64,000 nucleotides of DNA from a virus (Duplodnaviria; Heunggongvirae; Uroviricota; Caudoviricetes). Location of the stretch: the IMG/VR virus record IMGVR_UViG_2728369393_000007. The stretch is one strand, 5' to 3'. The translations under genes and the position numbers were made by a program. Below, in pieces: positions 2,747 through 5,932 of this stretch; position 1 is the stretch's first letter, and every line of letters begins with the position of its first letter. The notes beneath the pieces are model-generated. The model did not search any database, had not been told where the DNA came from, and was given only the letters and a program-made list of their open reading frames with translations.

Positions 2747-3505
2747 ATGAGGAACATAATGGCAGGTTTTTTAATATTCCTGTCTTCTGCTGCTTATGCT
2801 GATATCAATCTGTATGGTCCTGGTGGCCCGCATACAGCCTTGCTTGATGCAGCCAAACTTTATGCCGAAAAAACAGGTATTATAGTGAACGTTCATTACG
2901 GCCCACAGAACAAATGGAATGAAGATGCCAAAAAAAATGCAGATATCTTGTTTGGCGCATCAGAACAATCTGCTCTGGCTATCATTCGGGACCATAAAGA
3001 CAGCTTCAGTGAAAAAGATATTCAGCCTCTTTATCTGCGAAAAAGTATTTTACTGGTAAAGAAAGGTAATCCTAAAAATATCCGGAGTATTGACGACCTG
3101 ACCAGACCTGGGATTGGCGTAATTGTTAATGATGGTGGTGGTACCAGTAATACATCAGGCACTGGCGTCTGGGAAGATATTGCCGGACGTAAAGGGAATA
3201 TAGAAACTGTCGCCGCAATCCGAAAAAATATTATTTTATATGCGCCCAATAGCGGAACTGCACGTAAGGCTCTTGAGAATCAGCCTGGAGCAGATGTCTG
3301 GATAACCTGGGCTGACTGGGCAGCCAGTAATCCAGAAATTGGTGATGTCGTGGAAATAGCGCCAGACTACGTGATATGGCGTGATATGAACATTACAGTA
3401 CGTCAGGATGCAAATGATGAAACCCGTCGATTTGCAGAATGGCTACAAACCGATGAAGCGGCGCCTGCATTCAAAAAATATGGCTGGACCAGGAAAGGCA
3501 CTTGA
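2747..3505 (+). CDS. secreted periplasmic substrate-binding protein (ModA/anion-binding PBP fold), orphan
   Basis: AAAGGAG RBS; signal peptide MRNIMAGFLIFLSSAAYA; PBP type-2 fold features; AT-rich codon usage unlike flanking phage genes; no linked permease/ATPase. Confidence 0.65.
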   Translation: MRNIMAGFLIFLSSAAYADINLYGPGGPHTALLDAAKLYAEKTGIIVNVHYGPQNKWNEDAKKNADILFGASEQSALAIIRDHKDSFSEKDIQPLYLRKSILLVKKGNPKNIRSIDDLTRPGIGVIVNDGGGTSNTSGTGVWEDIAGRKGNIETVAAIRKNIILYAPNSGTARKALENQPGADVWITWADWAASNPEIGDVVEIAPDYVIWRDMNITVRQDANDETRRFAEWLQTDEAAPAFKKYGWTRKGT

Positions 3506-3840
3506 CATCCTCGTCCTTCAGGACGTGGATTCTTTTTCCGGATGCCGCGCCAGCGGCATGTAGGGGCAGCTCACAAAACGGAAAAAATTGTACGCTAAGC
3601 CTCGCCAGGTGAACTGAATTCATTCCGATATGGGAATTCCCATATCGGGCGAAAACGGTTTGCTGTAACGGCAGAGTTAAGTAGGATTGCTGCGGGTGCT
3701 TGAGGCTATCTGCCTCGGGCATGAACACCAACGGCAGATAGATAAAAGCCCCACCCGACTATAAATCGAAGTGAGGCCCCTATATGCTCGTCACATATAG
3801 ATTGCCTCTTACGGACCGAAAGGTCAAGGAGAAGCAGGCT

Positions 3841-3996
3841 ATGAAGCAGCAAAAGGCGATGTTAATCGCCCTGATCGTCATCTGTTTAACCGTCATAGTG
3901 ACGGCACTGGTAACGAGGAAAGACCTCTGCGAGGTACGAATCCGAACCGGCCAGACGGAGGTCGCTGTCTTCACAGCTTACGAACCTGAGGAGTAA
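3841..3996 (+). CDS. hokD: Hok/Gef family type I toxin (HokD/RelF-like)
   Basis: 51 aa MKQQKAMLIALIVICLTVIVTALVTRKDLCEVRIRTGQTEVAVFTAYEPEE, AGGAG RBS; single TM helix. Confidence 0.8.
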   Translation: MKQQKAMLIALIVICLTVIVTALVTRKDLCEVRIRTGQTEVAVFTAYEPEE

Positions 3997-4061
3997 GAGA
4001 CCAGGCGGGGGAGAAATCCCTCGCCACCTCTGATGTGTCAGGCATCCTCAACGCACCCGCA

Positions 4062-4087
4062 CTTAACCCGCTTCGGCGGGTTTTTTG
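4062..4087 (+). terminator. rho-independent terminator after hokD
   Basis: CCCGC-TTCG-GCGGG stem-loop followed by T7. Confidence 0.55.
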
Positions 4088-4269
4088 TTGTTTATTTTTA
4101 GTGGGGTTGATCTTTTTGATTGCGTCATCACGTTTGCCTGTAAAGGCATCGCGGATGTATTGAACAGATAATGAGCCAACATAGAATCAAAAATTCTTAA
4201 GTAGCGCGCAGGGAGAAGATGGATGGACCCCAAACAGGGGAGTGCTATTTATCTGGAAGGATTCTGTTG

Positions 4270-4875: not shown

Positions 4876-4948
4876 CGTGCGGGTATTACTTCGACCTGTT
4901 CTGGTACCGGAACTCGGGCTGGTGGTCCTTAAGCCAGGTCGTGAATCC

Positions 4949-5932
4949 ATGCAGGTATTTCACAATCCTCGAGTGCTGGTGGAGCCGGAACCAAAAAGCA
5001 TGCGTAATCTGCCGTCCGGGGTCGTTCCTGCCGTTCGCCAGCCGCTGGCGGAGGATAAATCATTACTGCCGTTTTTCAGTAACGAACGGGTGATTCGTGC
5101 TGCTGGTGGTGCTGGTGCATTGTCTGACTGGCTGTTGCGCCATATTAAATCCTGCCAGTGGCCACACGGCGATTATCATCACAGTGAAACCGTCATACAT
5201 CGTTACGGTACCGGCGCAATGGTGTTGTGCTGGCACTGCGACAACCAGTTGCGTGACCAGACATCCGAATCACTCGAGCAACTTGCTCATCAAAACCTGT
5301 CAGCATGGATGATTGACGTCATCGGTCACGCAATAAGCGGTACGCAGGAGCGTGAATTATCTCTGGCTGAATTATCCTGGTGGGCGGTCCGCAATCAGGT
5401 GGCGGACGCGCTACCGGAAGCGGTATTACGTCGTTCGCTGGGGTTGCGTGCGGAAAAAATCCGCTCAATGTACCGTGAAAGTGACATCGTACCGGGAGAG
5501 CAGACCGCCACCAGCATACTGAAGCAGCGCACAAAAAATCTTGCGCCGCTGCCTCACGCCCACCAGCAAAACCCGCCACAGGAAAAGACGGTGGTCAGCA
5601 TTGCCGTTGATCCGGAGTCACCGGCTCAGTATCTCCAGCGCCAGAAACCACAACGGGAAGAGATGCCTGTATACACGCGCTGGGTAAAAACGCAGAAATG
5701 CATGACGTGCGGTAATCAGGCAGATGATCCGCATCACATCATTGGTCATGGACTGGGAGGGATGGGAACAAAGGCTGATGATTTGTTTGTTATTCCGCTG
5801 TGCCGTAAATGTCATAACGAACTGCACGCCGGGGTAAAAGATTTTGAAGAAAAACACGGCAGCCAGCTGTTGTTGCTGATTCGTTTTTTAATGCACGCGA
5901 GAAATTCGGGTGTCCTGAAGTGGAAAGCATGA
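4949..5932 (+). CDS. DUF968 family protein (YdfU-like)
   Basis: C-terminal Cys/His cluster CMTCGNQADDPHHIIGHGLGGMGTKADDLFVIPLCRKCHNELH; paralog of 53247-54152. Confidence 0.65.
   Translation: MQVFHNPRVLVEPEPKSMRNLPSGVVPAVRQPLAEDKSLLPFFSNERVIRAAGGAGALSDWLLRHIKSCQWPHGDYHHSETVIHRYGTGAMVLCWHCDNQLRDQTSESLEQLAHQNLSAWMIDVIGHAISGTQERELSLAELSWWAVRNQVADALPEAVLRRSLGLRAEKIRSMYRESDIVPGEQTATSILKQRTKNLAPLPHAHQQNPPQEKTVVSIAVDPESPAQYLQRQKPQREEMPVYTRWVKTQKCMTCGNQADDPHHIIGHGLGGMGTKADDLFVIPLCRKCHNELHAGVKDFEEKHGSQLLLLIRFLMHARNSGVLKWKA

What the first reader, a model, noticed from the sequence alone, without database searches (positions are those of the whole stretch)
3600..4090. hokD-type toxin gene preceded by a perfect 24-bp palindrome
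The Hok family toxin (51 aa) has an in-frame upstream extension and its own terminator, but I cannot identify the sok antisense partner by eye. A perfect palindrome CCGATATGGGAATTCCCATATCGG (3625-3648) lies ~190 bp upstream and could be a protein-binding site or RNA hairpin of the locus.
Basis: partly seen in the sequence, partly recalled or inferred. Interest (0 to 1): 0.4.

Follow-up and report, generated by a model that had tools for sequence, protein, structure and literature searches.

The report
Intact hok/sok toxin locus; stray palindrome
This is an ordinary, complete hok/mok/sok toxin-antitoxin cassette in an E. coli prophage, and the 24-bp palindrome in front of it is not part of that cassette but a stray copy of a palindrome otherwise kept inside BstA-like phage-defence genes.

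Summary
Window 3625-3648 is a perfect, single-copy 24-bp palindrome. A 51-aa Hok/Gef toxin identical to K-12 HokD lies at 3841-3996, and an intrinsic terminator at 4065-4082.

The in-frame extension is mok (3784-3996). Rfam's hok-leader model matches 3694-3843 at 103.9 bits. The 5' tac element (3694-3705) pairs with a 3' fbi element (4046-4058).

The missing sok partner maps to about 3792-3738 on the minus strand. Its promoter, TTGACC-17-CAATCT, has the same layout as annotated K-12 sokC. So this is the full-length version of the hokD allele, not the 5'-truncated K-12 Qin relic. It is a known, already annotated kind of locus.

The palindrome lies outside the hok mRNA, 11 bp upstream of the hok -35. 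Most hok loci lack it; about 20% of sampled phage hok loci carry it. It sits exactly at a junction between two modules.

The same sequence occurs inside KilA-N-type BstA-like abortive-infection genes, where it encodes DMGIPIS. Across 78 homologues from many phyla the palindrome is kept through compensatory changes, including silent sites. I found no description of this in the searchable literature.

The window copy is an orphan of that element. It is most likely a recombination scar. A portable DNA function such as an immunity decoy is not excluded.

The parts
3625..3648 (.). Perfect 24-bp palindrome CCGATATGGGAATTCCCATATCGG. It is an orphan, non-coding copy of the palindrome conserved inside KilA-N-type BstA-like genes, and it sits at the junction between the upstream module and the hok module.
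   Evidence: presence, single copy; junction; origin and covariation in BstA-like genes
3660..3687 (+). Inferred hok promoter: -35 TTGCTG (3660-3665), 16-nt spacer, -10 TAGGAT (3682-3687). The transcript start would be about G3694.
   Evidence: The -10 aligns with the TATAAT of K-12 hokC and the Rfam model starts at 3694. The consensus scan did not flag it, so this part is inferred.
3694..4089 (+). Full-length hok mRNA: leader, mok/hok coding region and 3' UTR with terminator.
   Evidence: Rfam RF01794 matches 3694-3843 at 103.9 bits against a gathering score of 59. The minimum-energy fold is -167.2 kcal/mol with z = -7.3.
3694..3705 (+). tac (translational activator) element at the mRNA 5' end.
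   Evidence: It pairs with 4046-4058 in the minimum-energy fold. Repeat I13 is the perfect 9-nt core of that pairing.
4046..4058 (+). fbi (fold-back inhibition) element.
3780..3800 (+). Sok-target hairpin: stem CUAUAUG/CAUAUAG, loop CUCGUCA. The mok AUG lies within the stem.
   Evidence: fold; comparison of alleles
3784..3996 (+). mok (70 codons, in frame with hok). A GAGG Shine-Dalgarno sequence lies at 3773-3776.
   Evidence: (aligned with K-12 mokC and 933W mokW)
3841..3996 (+). hok toxin gene (51 aa, identical to K-12 HokD). An AAGGAG Shine-Dalgarno sequence lies at 3826-3831.
   Evidence: (RefSeq annotation hokD, WP_000813254.1)
3799..3827 (-). Predicted sok promoter: -35 TTGACC (3827-3822), 17-nt spacer, -10 CAATCT (3804-3799).
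   Evidence: The architecture matches that upstream of annotated K-12 sokC, TTGACC-17-CACTCT-6-+1. The consensus scan did not flag it.
3738..3792 (-). Predicted Sok antisense RNA (about 55 nt): a single-stranded 5' tail, a terminator hairpin at 3783-3742 in the minimum-energy fold, and a UUUUAUCUAU tail.
   Evidence: Mapped from sokW and sokC. Fold energy is -21.4 kcal/mol with z = -4.7, and the shape matches SokC.
4065..4089 (+). Intrinsic terminator of hok mRNA: a 7-bp stem, a 4-nt loop and a T-run.

Best explanation
Window 3660-4089 is a complete, canonical hok/mok/sok type I toxin-antitoxin cassette in a lambdoid prophage of the paa-carrying 'PPompW' type.

A stable hok mRNA starts near 3694. 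It is kept translationally silent by pairing of its 5' tac element with its 3' fbi element. Slow 3' trimming would free the 5' end and allow mok translation, to which hok translation is coupled. The short-lived antisense Sok RNA (about 3792-3738, minus strand) pairs with the mok start region and blocks this. These mechanistic steps are inferred from the R1, hokC and hokW systems. What is shown here is that every sequence element is present.

The 24-bp palindrome is not a working part of this cassette. It is an orphan copy of a palindrome normally embedded in KilA-N-type BstA-like abortive-infection genes. It sits precisely at the seam between the upstream module and the hok module. The most likely reading is that it was left there by recombination at or next to the palindrome and has since spread together with hok.
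For: hok/sok identity:
- Pfam HOK_GEF hit at E=1.2e-23.
- Rfam RF01794 at 103.9 bits over the full model.
- tac/fbi pairing of 12 bp in the minimum-energy fold, z = -7.3.
- mok is in frame, as in K-12 mokC.
- The sok promoter, start and terminator are collinear with annotated sokC and sokW.
- Identical DNA is annotated hokD in RefSeq and 'gef, phage maintenance protein' in PPompW phage records.
- hokW-sokW, the annotated hok/sok locus of phage 933W (86% DNA identity here), has been shown experimentally in the Sakai Sp5 prophage to be a type I TA system (PMC8621323).
- K-12 Qin hokD matches only from window 3827 onward. The window therefore holds the untruncated form.

Palindrome is not part of the cassette:
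- Homology to 933W hokW begins just after it, at about 3652.
- It is absent from hokC and from 96 of 120 IMG/VR hok loci sampled by their leader sequence.
- Alignment of junction types shows it inserted between the end of a small upstream ORF and the hok -35 region.
- There is no U-run after it, so it is not a terminator.
- No Rfam family covers it.

Origin of the palindrome:
- The same 20-24 nt encode DMGIPIS inside KilA-N/BstA-like genes.
- In one prophage type that gene lies divergently upstream of hok.
- One hok-linked class keeps about 24 nt more of the BstA-like coding sequence.
Against: - No expression data exist. The hok and sok promoters are weak matches to consensus and were not flagged by the consensus scan.
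- A preprint's introduction, citing earlier work, states that chromosomal hok loci were unable to mediate post-segregational killing (10.1101/2025.08.07.668861). Activity here is therefore unproven.
- For the palindrome, 24 of the 28 sampled hok-linked copies keep the exact 20-nt core and 4 carry a 1-nt deletion.
- Identical orphan copies occur in at least 8 other unrelated intergenic contexts.
- The element is under clear nucleotide-level constraint in its home gene.
- These last three points fit a portable function as well as they fit a passive scar.
- The flank similarity to the BstA-like gene in the window's own class is weak (12 of 18 nt). It is better explained by homology to the small upstream ORF.
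Confidence: 0.7

Rival explanations
1. The orphan palindrome is a functional, portable DNA element. It would be a cognate 'self' or decoy site for KilA-N-type BstA-like abortive-infection proteins, analogous in logic to the aba element of bstA-BTP1. When amplified on replicating phage DNA it would protect this prophage from BstA-like defence encoded by other prophages.
For: - The palindrome is kept by compensatory changes in 78 BstA-like genes from many phyla, including silent third positions.
- Arm sequences differ between homologues: 17 distinct arm sequences form perfect stems. This would suit cognate specificity.
- Published aba is DNA-based, lies within the bstA locus, acts only at high copy and is cognate-specific (PMC8585504).
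- Exact orphan copies occur in many unrelated intergenic contexts of phages that lack the gene.
- Related gut-phage contigs carry one or two different arm types in the same non-coding region.
- In E. coli the palindrome occurs in 877 genomes, against 137 genomes that hold the gene.
Against: - The mapped aba of BTP1 is a different sequence in a different place: the 5' end of the gene, with CCCGCC direct repeats and no palindrome.
- The experimentally studied BstA proteins have a different N-domain and no such palindrome.
- The palindrome also occurs in KilA-N genes on contigs labelled as giant-virus MAGs, where BstA-type immunity is not expected.
- Four of 28 sampled hok-linked orphans carry a 1-nt deletion in one arm.
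- One of the 'array' palindromes looks like a plain bidirectional terminator.
Confidence: 0.2
2. The palindrome is a cis-regulatory element of hok. It would be either a binding site for a dimeric regulator centred about 57 bp upstream of the hok start, or a hairpin that insulates hok from read-through transcription coming from paa and the early operon.
For: - Its spacing to the hok promoter is fixed in two independent left-hand contexts, the paa type and the small-ORF type.
- It would form a stable hairpin on either strand, at -18 to -19 kcal/mol with z about -4.
Against: - About 80% of related hok loci lack it, including the experimentally validated hokW and K-12 hokC.
- A third class has it 18 bp further away.
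- There is no U-tract on either strand.
- The same sequence occurs in contexts unrelated to hok.
Confidence: 0.07
3. The hok cassette is sequence-intact but functionally silent, a decaying chromosomal copy as has been argued for the K-12 chromosomal hok loci.
For: - The -10 of the sok promoter (CAATCT) and the hok -35/-10 are poor consensus matches.
- A preprint's introduction, citing earlier work, states that chromosomal hok loci could not mediate post-segregational killing.
- In the identical reference genome the host prophage is truncated on its left by IS600, with only a partial integrase.
Against: - No IS insertion, frameshift or truncation is present.
- All known elements are present and collinear with annotated sokC and validated hokW-sokW.
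- This allele was the commonest single one in the pooled phage-contig sample, at 22 of 152. That sample over-represents palindrome-bearing loci, because it includes the scan made with the palindrome itself.
- The 701-base query spanning the locus (3500-4200) has a best match of at least 99% identity in 544 E. coli records.
Confidence: 0.15
4. This rival concerns the side observation. The palindrome inside BstA-like genes would have no function. It would be a self-perpetuating quasi-palindrome kept symmetric by intrastrand template-switch mutation, and it would be recombination-prone, which would scatter orphan copies.
For: - Almost only Watson-Crick pairs are seen, with no excess of G-T (8 G-T/T-G against 25 A-C/C-A among 780 cells). 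This is as expected for a DNA-level copying process.
- The palindrome occurs in hosts as different as proteobacteria, Chloroflexi and contigs labelled as giant-virus MAGs.
- Orphans sit at module junctions.
- That template-switch correction of quasi-palindromes exists in E. coli is established knowledge recalled from memory, not checked here.
Against: - In enterobacterial homologues with about 72% gene-wide DNA identity, the 24 nt are 92-100% identical.
- 59 of 78 sequences have at most one mismatch in 10 pairs, across very deep divergence.
- Such persistence without selection would need a very high template-switch rate.
Confidence: 0.3

Closest known systems
hokW-mokW-sokW of Stx phages 933W and Sakai Sp5
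   Same: - It is a lambdoid-prophage hok cassette with 86% DNA identity over about 440 nt.
- The order of promoter, tac, sok, mok, hok and fbi is the same.
- It has been validated experimentally as a type I TA system that aids phage release (PMC8621323).
   Different: - The window's Sok hairpin region is 21 nt shorter.
- The mok frame follows the hokC pattern, through a -1/+1 indel pair.
- The sok promoter is TTGACC/CAATCT rather than TTGCCT/TAACCT.
- 933W has no palindrome upstream. An ORF ends directly at the hok module.
hokC (gef)/mokC/sokC of E. coli K-12
   Same: - It has the same short Sok hairpin type.
- The sok promoter architecture is the same, TTGACC-17-CA(C/A)TCT-6-G.
- The mok reading frame is the same (LPLTDRKVKEK).
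   Different: - It is a different toxin allele.
- K-12 hokC has IS186 immediately downstream.
- It has no palindrome upstream.
hokD (relF) of the K-12 Qin prophage
   Same: The hok coding sequence is identical, and identity is 98.5% from window 3827 through the terminator.
   Different: K-12 hokD lacks the whole leader (promoter, tac, sok, mok) because relBE abuts it. The window has all of these, so it is the intact form of this allele.
hok/sok of plasmid R1 (the archetype)
   Same: The element set and presumed folding pathway are the same. This is known from the literature and is represented here by the Rfam RF01794 match.
   Different: R1 hok/sok is plasmid-borne. Its sequence was not compared directly here.
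aba (anti-BstA) element of bstA in prophage BTP1 (Owen et al. 2021, PMC8585504)
   Same: It is a short DNA element physically embedded in an abortive-infection gene of the BstA family.
   Different: - aba is 63 bp at the 5' end of the gene, with terminal CCCGCC direct repeats.
- BTP1-type and Ec-type bstA genes have no such palindrome.
- The palindrome marks the KilA-N-type subfamily and lies at about codons 58-66.
- No function of the palindrome has been tested.

Membership tests
[quoted passage not shown] | Small (about 50 aa) Hok/Gef membrane toxin ORF | tested here: met
   PF01848 hit at 82.9 bits, E=1.2e-23. The sequence is identical to K-12 HokD.
[quoted passage not shown] | mok reading frame starting upstream and overlapping hok, with its own Shine-Dalgarno sequence | tested here: met
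   A 70-codon ORF at 3784-3996, with GAGG at 3773-3776. It is collinear with mokC and mokW.
[quoted passage not shown] | Conserved hok mRNA leader structure | tested here: met
   Rfam RF01794 matches at 103.9 bits against a gathering score of 59, covering model positions 1-157 on the hok strand. The Rfam family is named 'sok', but the match here lies on the hok (+) strand and ends at the hok AUG.
[quoted passage not shown] | Long-range 5' tac to 3' fbi pairing that closes the full-length mRNA | tested here: met
   3694-3705 pairs with 4046-4058 in the minimum-energy fold, and the whole-mRNA z-score is -7.3.
[quoted passage not shown] | Antisense Sok gene with its own promoter and terminator, overlapping the mok start | tested here: met
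   Met at the sequence level by collinearity with annotated sokC and sokW, and by a SokC-like fold. The promoter is below the consensus-scan threshold.
[quoted passage not shown] | Sok RNA is expressed and Hok is toxic and regulated | not testable with these tools
   This needs RNA-seq or Northern blots and toxicity assays.
Internal palindrome of KilA-N-type BstA-like genes | Palindromic sequence centred on GGAATTCC with 10-12 bp complementary arms, identical to the gene-borne version | tested here: met
   All 24 nt match several homologues (L301, L304, L305 and others). 23 of 24 match the E. coli gene in L124.
Internal palindrome of KilA-N-type BstA-like genes | Lies in frame inside a KilA-N/BstA-C coding sequence | tested here: not met
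   No BstA-like ORF exists in the window. The best tblastn hit has E=0.09 and is unrelated. Stop codons flank the palindrome in both orientations. It is therefore an orphan copy, not a member gene.
aba anti-BstA element (Owen et al. 2021) | 63-bp element spanning the bstA start codon, with terminal CCCGCC direct repeats | tested here: not met
   The published aba sequence is unrelated to 3625-3648. BTP1-type and Ec-type bstA genes lack the palindrome.
Rho-independent terminator | G+C-rich hairpin followed by a U-run | tested here: not met
   The palindrome was not reported by the terminator scan. It is followed by GCGAAAACGG on the + strand and AAUGAAUUCA on the - strand.

The most novel reading that the evidence does not exclude
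The 24-bp palindrome belongs to an undescribed class of DNA element that co-evolves with KilA-N-type BstA-like abortive-infection genes. The very nucleotides that encode part of the KilA-N DNA-binding domain (x-G-I-P-x') would form a hairpin or cruciform that the protein recognises as 'self'. Phages such as this hok-carrying prophage would carry orphan copies as decoys to escape that defence.
Probability: 0.15. Interest if true: 0.75.

Novelty: already known. Interest (0 to 1): 0.3.

Why it matters
The hok/mok/sok cassette itself is textbook and already annotated. Its only added value is in showing what the intact ancestor of the truncated K-12 hokD (relF) locus looks like.

The palindrome is more interesting for what it points to. 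A perfectly symmetric 20-28 bp sequence sits inside a phage-defence gene family and is preserved across phyla by compensatory substitutions that even override amino-acid identity. Stray copies are scattered through phage genomes.

If that element turns out to be functional, it would give a handle on how BstA-like systems tell self from non-self DNA. It would also describe a new kind of DNA-level counter-defence. If it is not functional, it is a clean natural example of a self-maintaining, recombination-prone palindrome that marks mosaic joints in phage genomes.

Tried and rejected
1. Terminator. There is no U-run and the scan gave no call.

2. Repeat family within the window, such as REP-like elements. 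The palindrome is single-copy with up to 3 mismatches allowed.

3. The '2-6 places per genome' reported. This is largely an artefact, because a palindrome matches on both strands.

4. My recollection that the published aba element is an inverted repeat inside bstA. It was wrong. aba is a 63-bp 5' element with direct repeats, and the paper does not contain the words 'palindrome' or 'inverted repeat'.

5. A simple gene relic with BstA-derived flanks. tblastn finds nothing beyond the palindrome in the window's class. The left flank is homologous to the end of a small upstream ORF instead. Only the rarer class, with the palindrome 85 nt upstream of the hok leader start, keeps about 8 more BstA-like codons.

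6. A recombination breakpoint inside BstA-like genes at the palindrome. There is no jump in identity across it.

7. An array of decoys in L005-like phages. This is weakened because the AAAAACGGGAATTCCCGTTTTT member looks like a bidirectional terminator, and only 1 of the 17 loci newly fetched with this arm type (20 hits in all) lies in a KilA-N gene.

8. Pfam on the ORFs next to the L005 non-coding region gave no KilA-N hit.

9. Sub-threshold Rfam hits to isrK and rsmX at 4000-4086. Both fall below their gathering scores and overlap the hok terminator hairpin region.

10. Literature searches for KilA-N together with 'palindrome' or 'inverted repeat' returned nothing.
Full report
CONTEXT. The 701-base stretch spanning the locus (window 3500-4200) is 100% identical to E. 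coli CFSAN004176. It is 99.7% identical over its first 599 bases to the paa-carrying 'PPompW' prophages of STEC. The local gene order is: replication genes, paa (2747-3505, an AcfC/SBP_bac_11 adhesin moron), the hok locus, two small ORFs, DUF968/HNH (4877-5932), rusA, then Q. In the reference genome the prophage is truncated on its left by IS600.

OBSERVATION. The palindrome CCGATATGGGAATTCCCATATCGG is at 3625-3648. It is perfect, has no spacer and is unique in the window. By arithmetic, chance would give about 0.004 such palindromes in 64 kb. The 51-aa ORF at 3841-3996 is a Hok/Gef toxin (PF01848, E=1.2e-23). Its coding sequence is identical to K-12 hokD. RefSeq annotates the identical DNA as hokD, and phage records annotate it as 'gef, phage maintenance protein'. 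The in-frame extension (ATG 3784, 70 codons) and the terminator (4065-4082 plus a T-run) are present as described.

THE HOK/SOK CASSETTE IS COMPLETE.
- Rfam RF01794 matches 3694-3843 on the plus strand. The score is 103.9 bits against a gathering score of 59, covering all 157 model positions and ending at the hok AUG. Despite the family name 'sok', the match lies on the hok (+) strand.
- The transcript 3694-4090 folds with z = -7.3. In the minimum-energy structure its first 12 nt (tac, 3694-3705) pair with 4046-4058 (fbi), just upstream of the terminator.
- The in-frame extension is mok. It aligns with K-12 mokC and 933W mokW, and shares the mokC reading frame ..PLTDRKVKEK...
- The antisense partner can be placed by homology. 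933W sokW and K-12 sokC both start 8 nt inside mok. In K-12 the annotated sokC start is preceded by TTGACC-17 nt-CACTCT-6 nt.
- The window has TTGACC (3827-3822), 17 nt, CAATCT (3804-3799), 6 nt, then G3792. This is followed by a hairpin and UUUUAUCUAU, ending near 3738.
- The 55-nt RNA folds like SokC: a free 5' tail plus a terminator hairpin, at -21.4 kcal/mol with z = -4.7.
- The Sok target, the mok start region at 3780-3800, forms a hairpin with the AUG in its stem. This segment is the most variable part of the leader among the commonest alleles in the 152-locus sample.
- The hok promoter (TTGCTG at 3660-3665, 16 nt, TAGGAT at 3682-3687) is inferred from alignment with the hokC TATAAT and from the Rfam start.
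- Neither the hok nor the sok promoter passes the simple consensus scan. Expression therefore remains untested.

RELATION TO K-12 hokD. K-12 Qin hokD matches only from window 3827 onward, at 98.5% identity. relE abuts it, so it lacks the promoter, tac, sok and mok. The closest validated relative is hokW-sokW, annotated in phage 933W (86% DNA identity) and validated in the Sakai Sp5 prophage. That system acts as a type I TA that depends partly on RNase III and Hfq, and it promotes phage release after induction (PMC8621323). [quoted passage not shown]

THE PALINDROME IS NOT PART OF THE CASSETTE.
- It ends 11 bp upstream of the hok -35 and is outside the hok mRNA.
- Homology to 933W hokW starts right after it, at about 3652.
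- hokC has nothing similar.
- I sampled IMG/VR hok loci by a leader pattern that is independent of the palindrome. 24 of 120 carry the exact 20-nt core upstream.
- Four further loci in the pooled sample carry a copy with a 1-nt deletion.
- The core is found 67 nt upstream of the leader start in two different left-hand contexts. One is the paa moron, as in the window. The other is a 34-aa membrane-peptide ORF, as in LZHX12 and OkiPb01704. In a third context it lies 85 nt upstream.
- An alignment of junction types shows that the palindrome fills the gap between the end of the small-ORF module (..CTGAATTCAT) and the hok module (AAAACGGTTTGC..). A sister type joins these two modules without it.
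- It has no U-run and no Rfam match.

WHERE THE PALINDROME COMES FROM. The exact core occurs in more than 120 IMG/VR contigs. About two thirds of these are the hok-linked copies. Thirty lie inside ORFs of at least 100 codons, and 26 of those were confirmed as KilA-N-domain genes, where the core encodes ..S(R/S)DMGIPISE... The E. coli gene product is WP_000200358.1, and it is found in 137 of 5,426 complete genomes. It matches Pfam KilA-N over its N-terminal half (residues 14-112), PHROG 6287 'BstA abortive infection system' over its full length (2.7e-89), and the PADLOC BstA model in the C-terminal half. It shares only the C-domain with BstA of BTP1, at 31.7% identity. In one E. coli prophage type this gene lies divergently upstream of hok, with the palindrome about 706 bp before the hok ATG. 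That arrangement gives a plausible source for the hok-linked orphan. The class at 85 nt keeps about 8 further BstA-like codons (DMGIPISRLTQSVK). In the window's own class the extra flank similarity is weak, at 12 of 18 nt. It is better attributed to the small-ORF module. The window contains no BstA-like gene.

AN UNEXPECTED PROPERTY OF THE HOME ELEMENT. I sampled BstA-like genes from one genome per species, using the unrelated peptide pattern QGTWVHP..A. This gave 80 loci from Alpha-, Beta- and Gammaproteobacteria, Verrucomicrobia, Chloroflexi, Firmicutes, Bacteroides, Planctomycetes and others. 76 of the 80 have the BstA-C domain.
- At the motif site, 46 of 80 have a palindrome of at least 20 bp, tolerating the central 4 nt. 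Elsewhere in about 2.7 kb of each locus, only 23 of 80 have one.
- The analysis used an ungapped 40-column alignment of 78 distinct sequences, anchored by a protein alignment rather than by the palindrome.
- All 12 proposed pairs show changes on both sides.
- There are 101 doubly changed cells against 31.9 +/- 4.1 in shuffles.
- The covariation score is 0.313 against 0.109, with 0 of 500 shuffles reaching it. Slid controls reach at most 0.085.
- Examples are CCGAAACGGGAATTCCCGTTTCGG (ETGIPVS), CCGATATCGGAATTCCGATATCGG (DIGIPIS), GGTCTATGGGAATTCCCATAGACC (SMGIPID) and CCGATGCGGGAATTCCCGCATCGG (DAGIPAS).
- The silent third base of the Pro codon switches C to G exactly when its partner switches G to C (GC 57, CG 18). 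The constraint is therefore on nucleic acid, not on protein.
- The central 4 nt (AATT, GATT, AATC, TATT) vary without compensation, as a loop would.
- 90% of cells in the inner 10 pairs are Watson-Crick, with almost no G-T. This points to DNA, or to both strands, rather than to a one-strand RNA.
- In enterobacterial homologues that are about 72% identical in DNA, the 24 nt are 92-100% identical.
- BstA of BTP1 and the E. coli BstA-Ec type have a different N-domain and no such palindrome.
- The published aba self-immunity element is a different 63-bp sequence at the 5' end of the gene.
- Full-text searches found no paper linking KilA-N with a palindrome or an inverted repeat.

ORPHAN COPIES ELSEWHERE. 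Exact copies of the E. coli-type core also lie in non-coding DNA with unrelated flanks.
- One lies between cro-like and cII-like genes (L022).
- One lies next to a primase-size (754-aa) gene, between iteron-like direct repeats (L014).
- One lies beside an integrase gene, next to a stretch that looks like the 3' end of a tRNA gene (L117).
- Others lie in nin-like and recombination regions (L037, L095).
- Two lie in tandem in L067.
- A second arm type gave 14 hits. Ten are KilA-N-type genes, including four on giant-virus-like contigs (two of them labelled GVMAG). One is a pseudogene and three are orphans.
- A group of gut-phage contigs carries one or two different arm types in the same non-coding region. 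One of those sequences looks like a simple terminator.
- Two KilA-N genes contain tandem in-frame copies.

INTERPRETATION.
- Shown: the locus has every sequence element of a hok/mok/sok system.
- Shown: the palindrome is real, lies outside the cassette at a module seam, and is identical to a constrained palindrome of BstA-like genes.
- Inferred: the cassette works as in R1, hokC and hokW.
- Inferred: the orphan arrived by recombination at or next to the palindrome and has no role in hok control (my estimate about 0.6).
- Not excluded: the orphan keeps whatever DNA-level activity the element has in its home gene, for example acting as a cognate decoy against BstA-like defence (about 0.15-0.2).
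- Not excluded: it modulates hok transcription (below 0.1).
- Whether the conservation inside BstA-like genes reflects function or self-correcting template switching cannot be decided computationally here.

VERDICT. The hok/sok locus is already known and ordinary. Its link to BstA-like genes is a side finding worth an experiment.

Noticed in passing
L297-L376 (genome-contig loci), at about codons 58-66 of each KilA-N/BstA-like gene; also L292-L296: A 20-28 bp perfect or near-perfect palindrome centred on GGAATTCC is conserved inside KilA-N-type BstA-like genes across many phyla. It shows extensive compensatory substitutions, including at silent sites, with 17 distinct arm sequences forming perfect 10-bp stems. 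I found no description of it in the searchable literature.
   Followed up: yes
L005 5700-6250 and related loci L028, L094, L397-L409: Related gut-phage contigs have a non-coding region with one or two palindromes of this family. The arms differ (GTGGTCGG type, ATATGGG type), and there is also a terminator-like AAAAACGGGAATTCCCGTTTTT. The second palindrome differs between otherwise similar phages.
   Followed up: partly
L391 about 1950-2025; L098 3238-3303: KilA-N genes on large AT-rich or giant-virus-like contigs carry two or three tandem in-frame copies of the palindrome unit, for example ..KKGIPVF..GMGIPID..ETGIPVS... The unit seems able to duplicate within a coding sequence.
   Followed up: no
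window 2747-3600: paa (an AcfC-family adhesin, SBP_bac_11) forms a typical moron. It is followed by a weak terminator-like hairpin (3512-3525) and a second hairpin (about 3543-3560). Compared with paa-less prophages, it has replaced all but about the last 20 nt of a 34-aa membrane-peptide ORF. Homology resumes at about 3602.
   Followed up: partly
window 3780-3800 compared with 152 hok loci: Among the commonest hok alleles in the 152-locus sample (46 alleles in all), the first few mok codons, which form the Sok 5'-tail target loop, vary most within the leader, while the flanking stems and the sok promoter are conserved. This would fit avoidance of cross-talk between co-resident hok/sok pairs.
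   Followed up: no
window 4005-4086: Sub-threshold Rfam matches to isrK (30.5 bits, gathering score 50) and rsmX (23.3 bits, gathering score 56) overlap the hok 3' UTR and terminator. They probably reflect generic hairpin-plus-terminator similarity.
   Followed up: no
window about 1-620 (mapped from L001): In the identical reference genome the prophage's left part is disrupted. An IS600 copy abuts a partial integrase and a partial ydaT-family gene, so the hok cassette sits in what is probably a defective prophage next to ompW.
   Followed up: no
L127 2000-2400 (K-12 Qin) compared with window 3827-4098: K-12 hokD (relF) is the 5'-truncated derivative of exactly this allele. Identity of 98.5% begins just before the hok Shine-Dalgarno sequence, and relE occupies the place of the leader.
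   Followed up: yes
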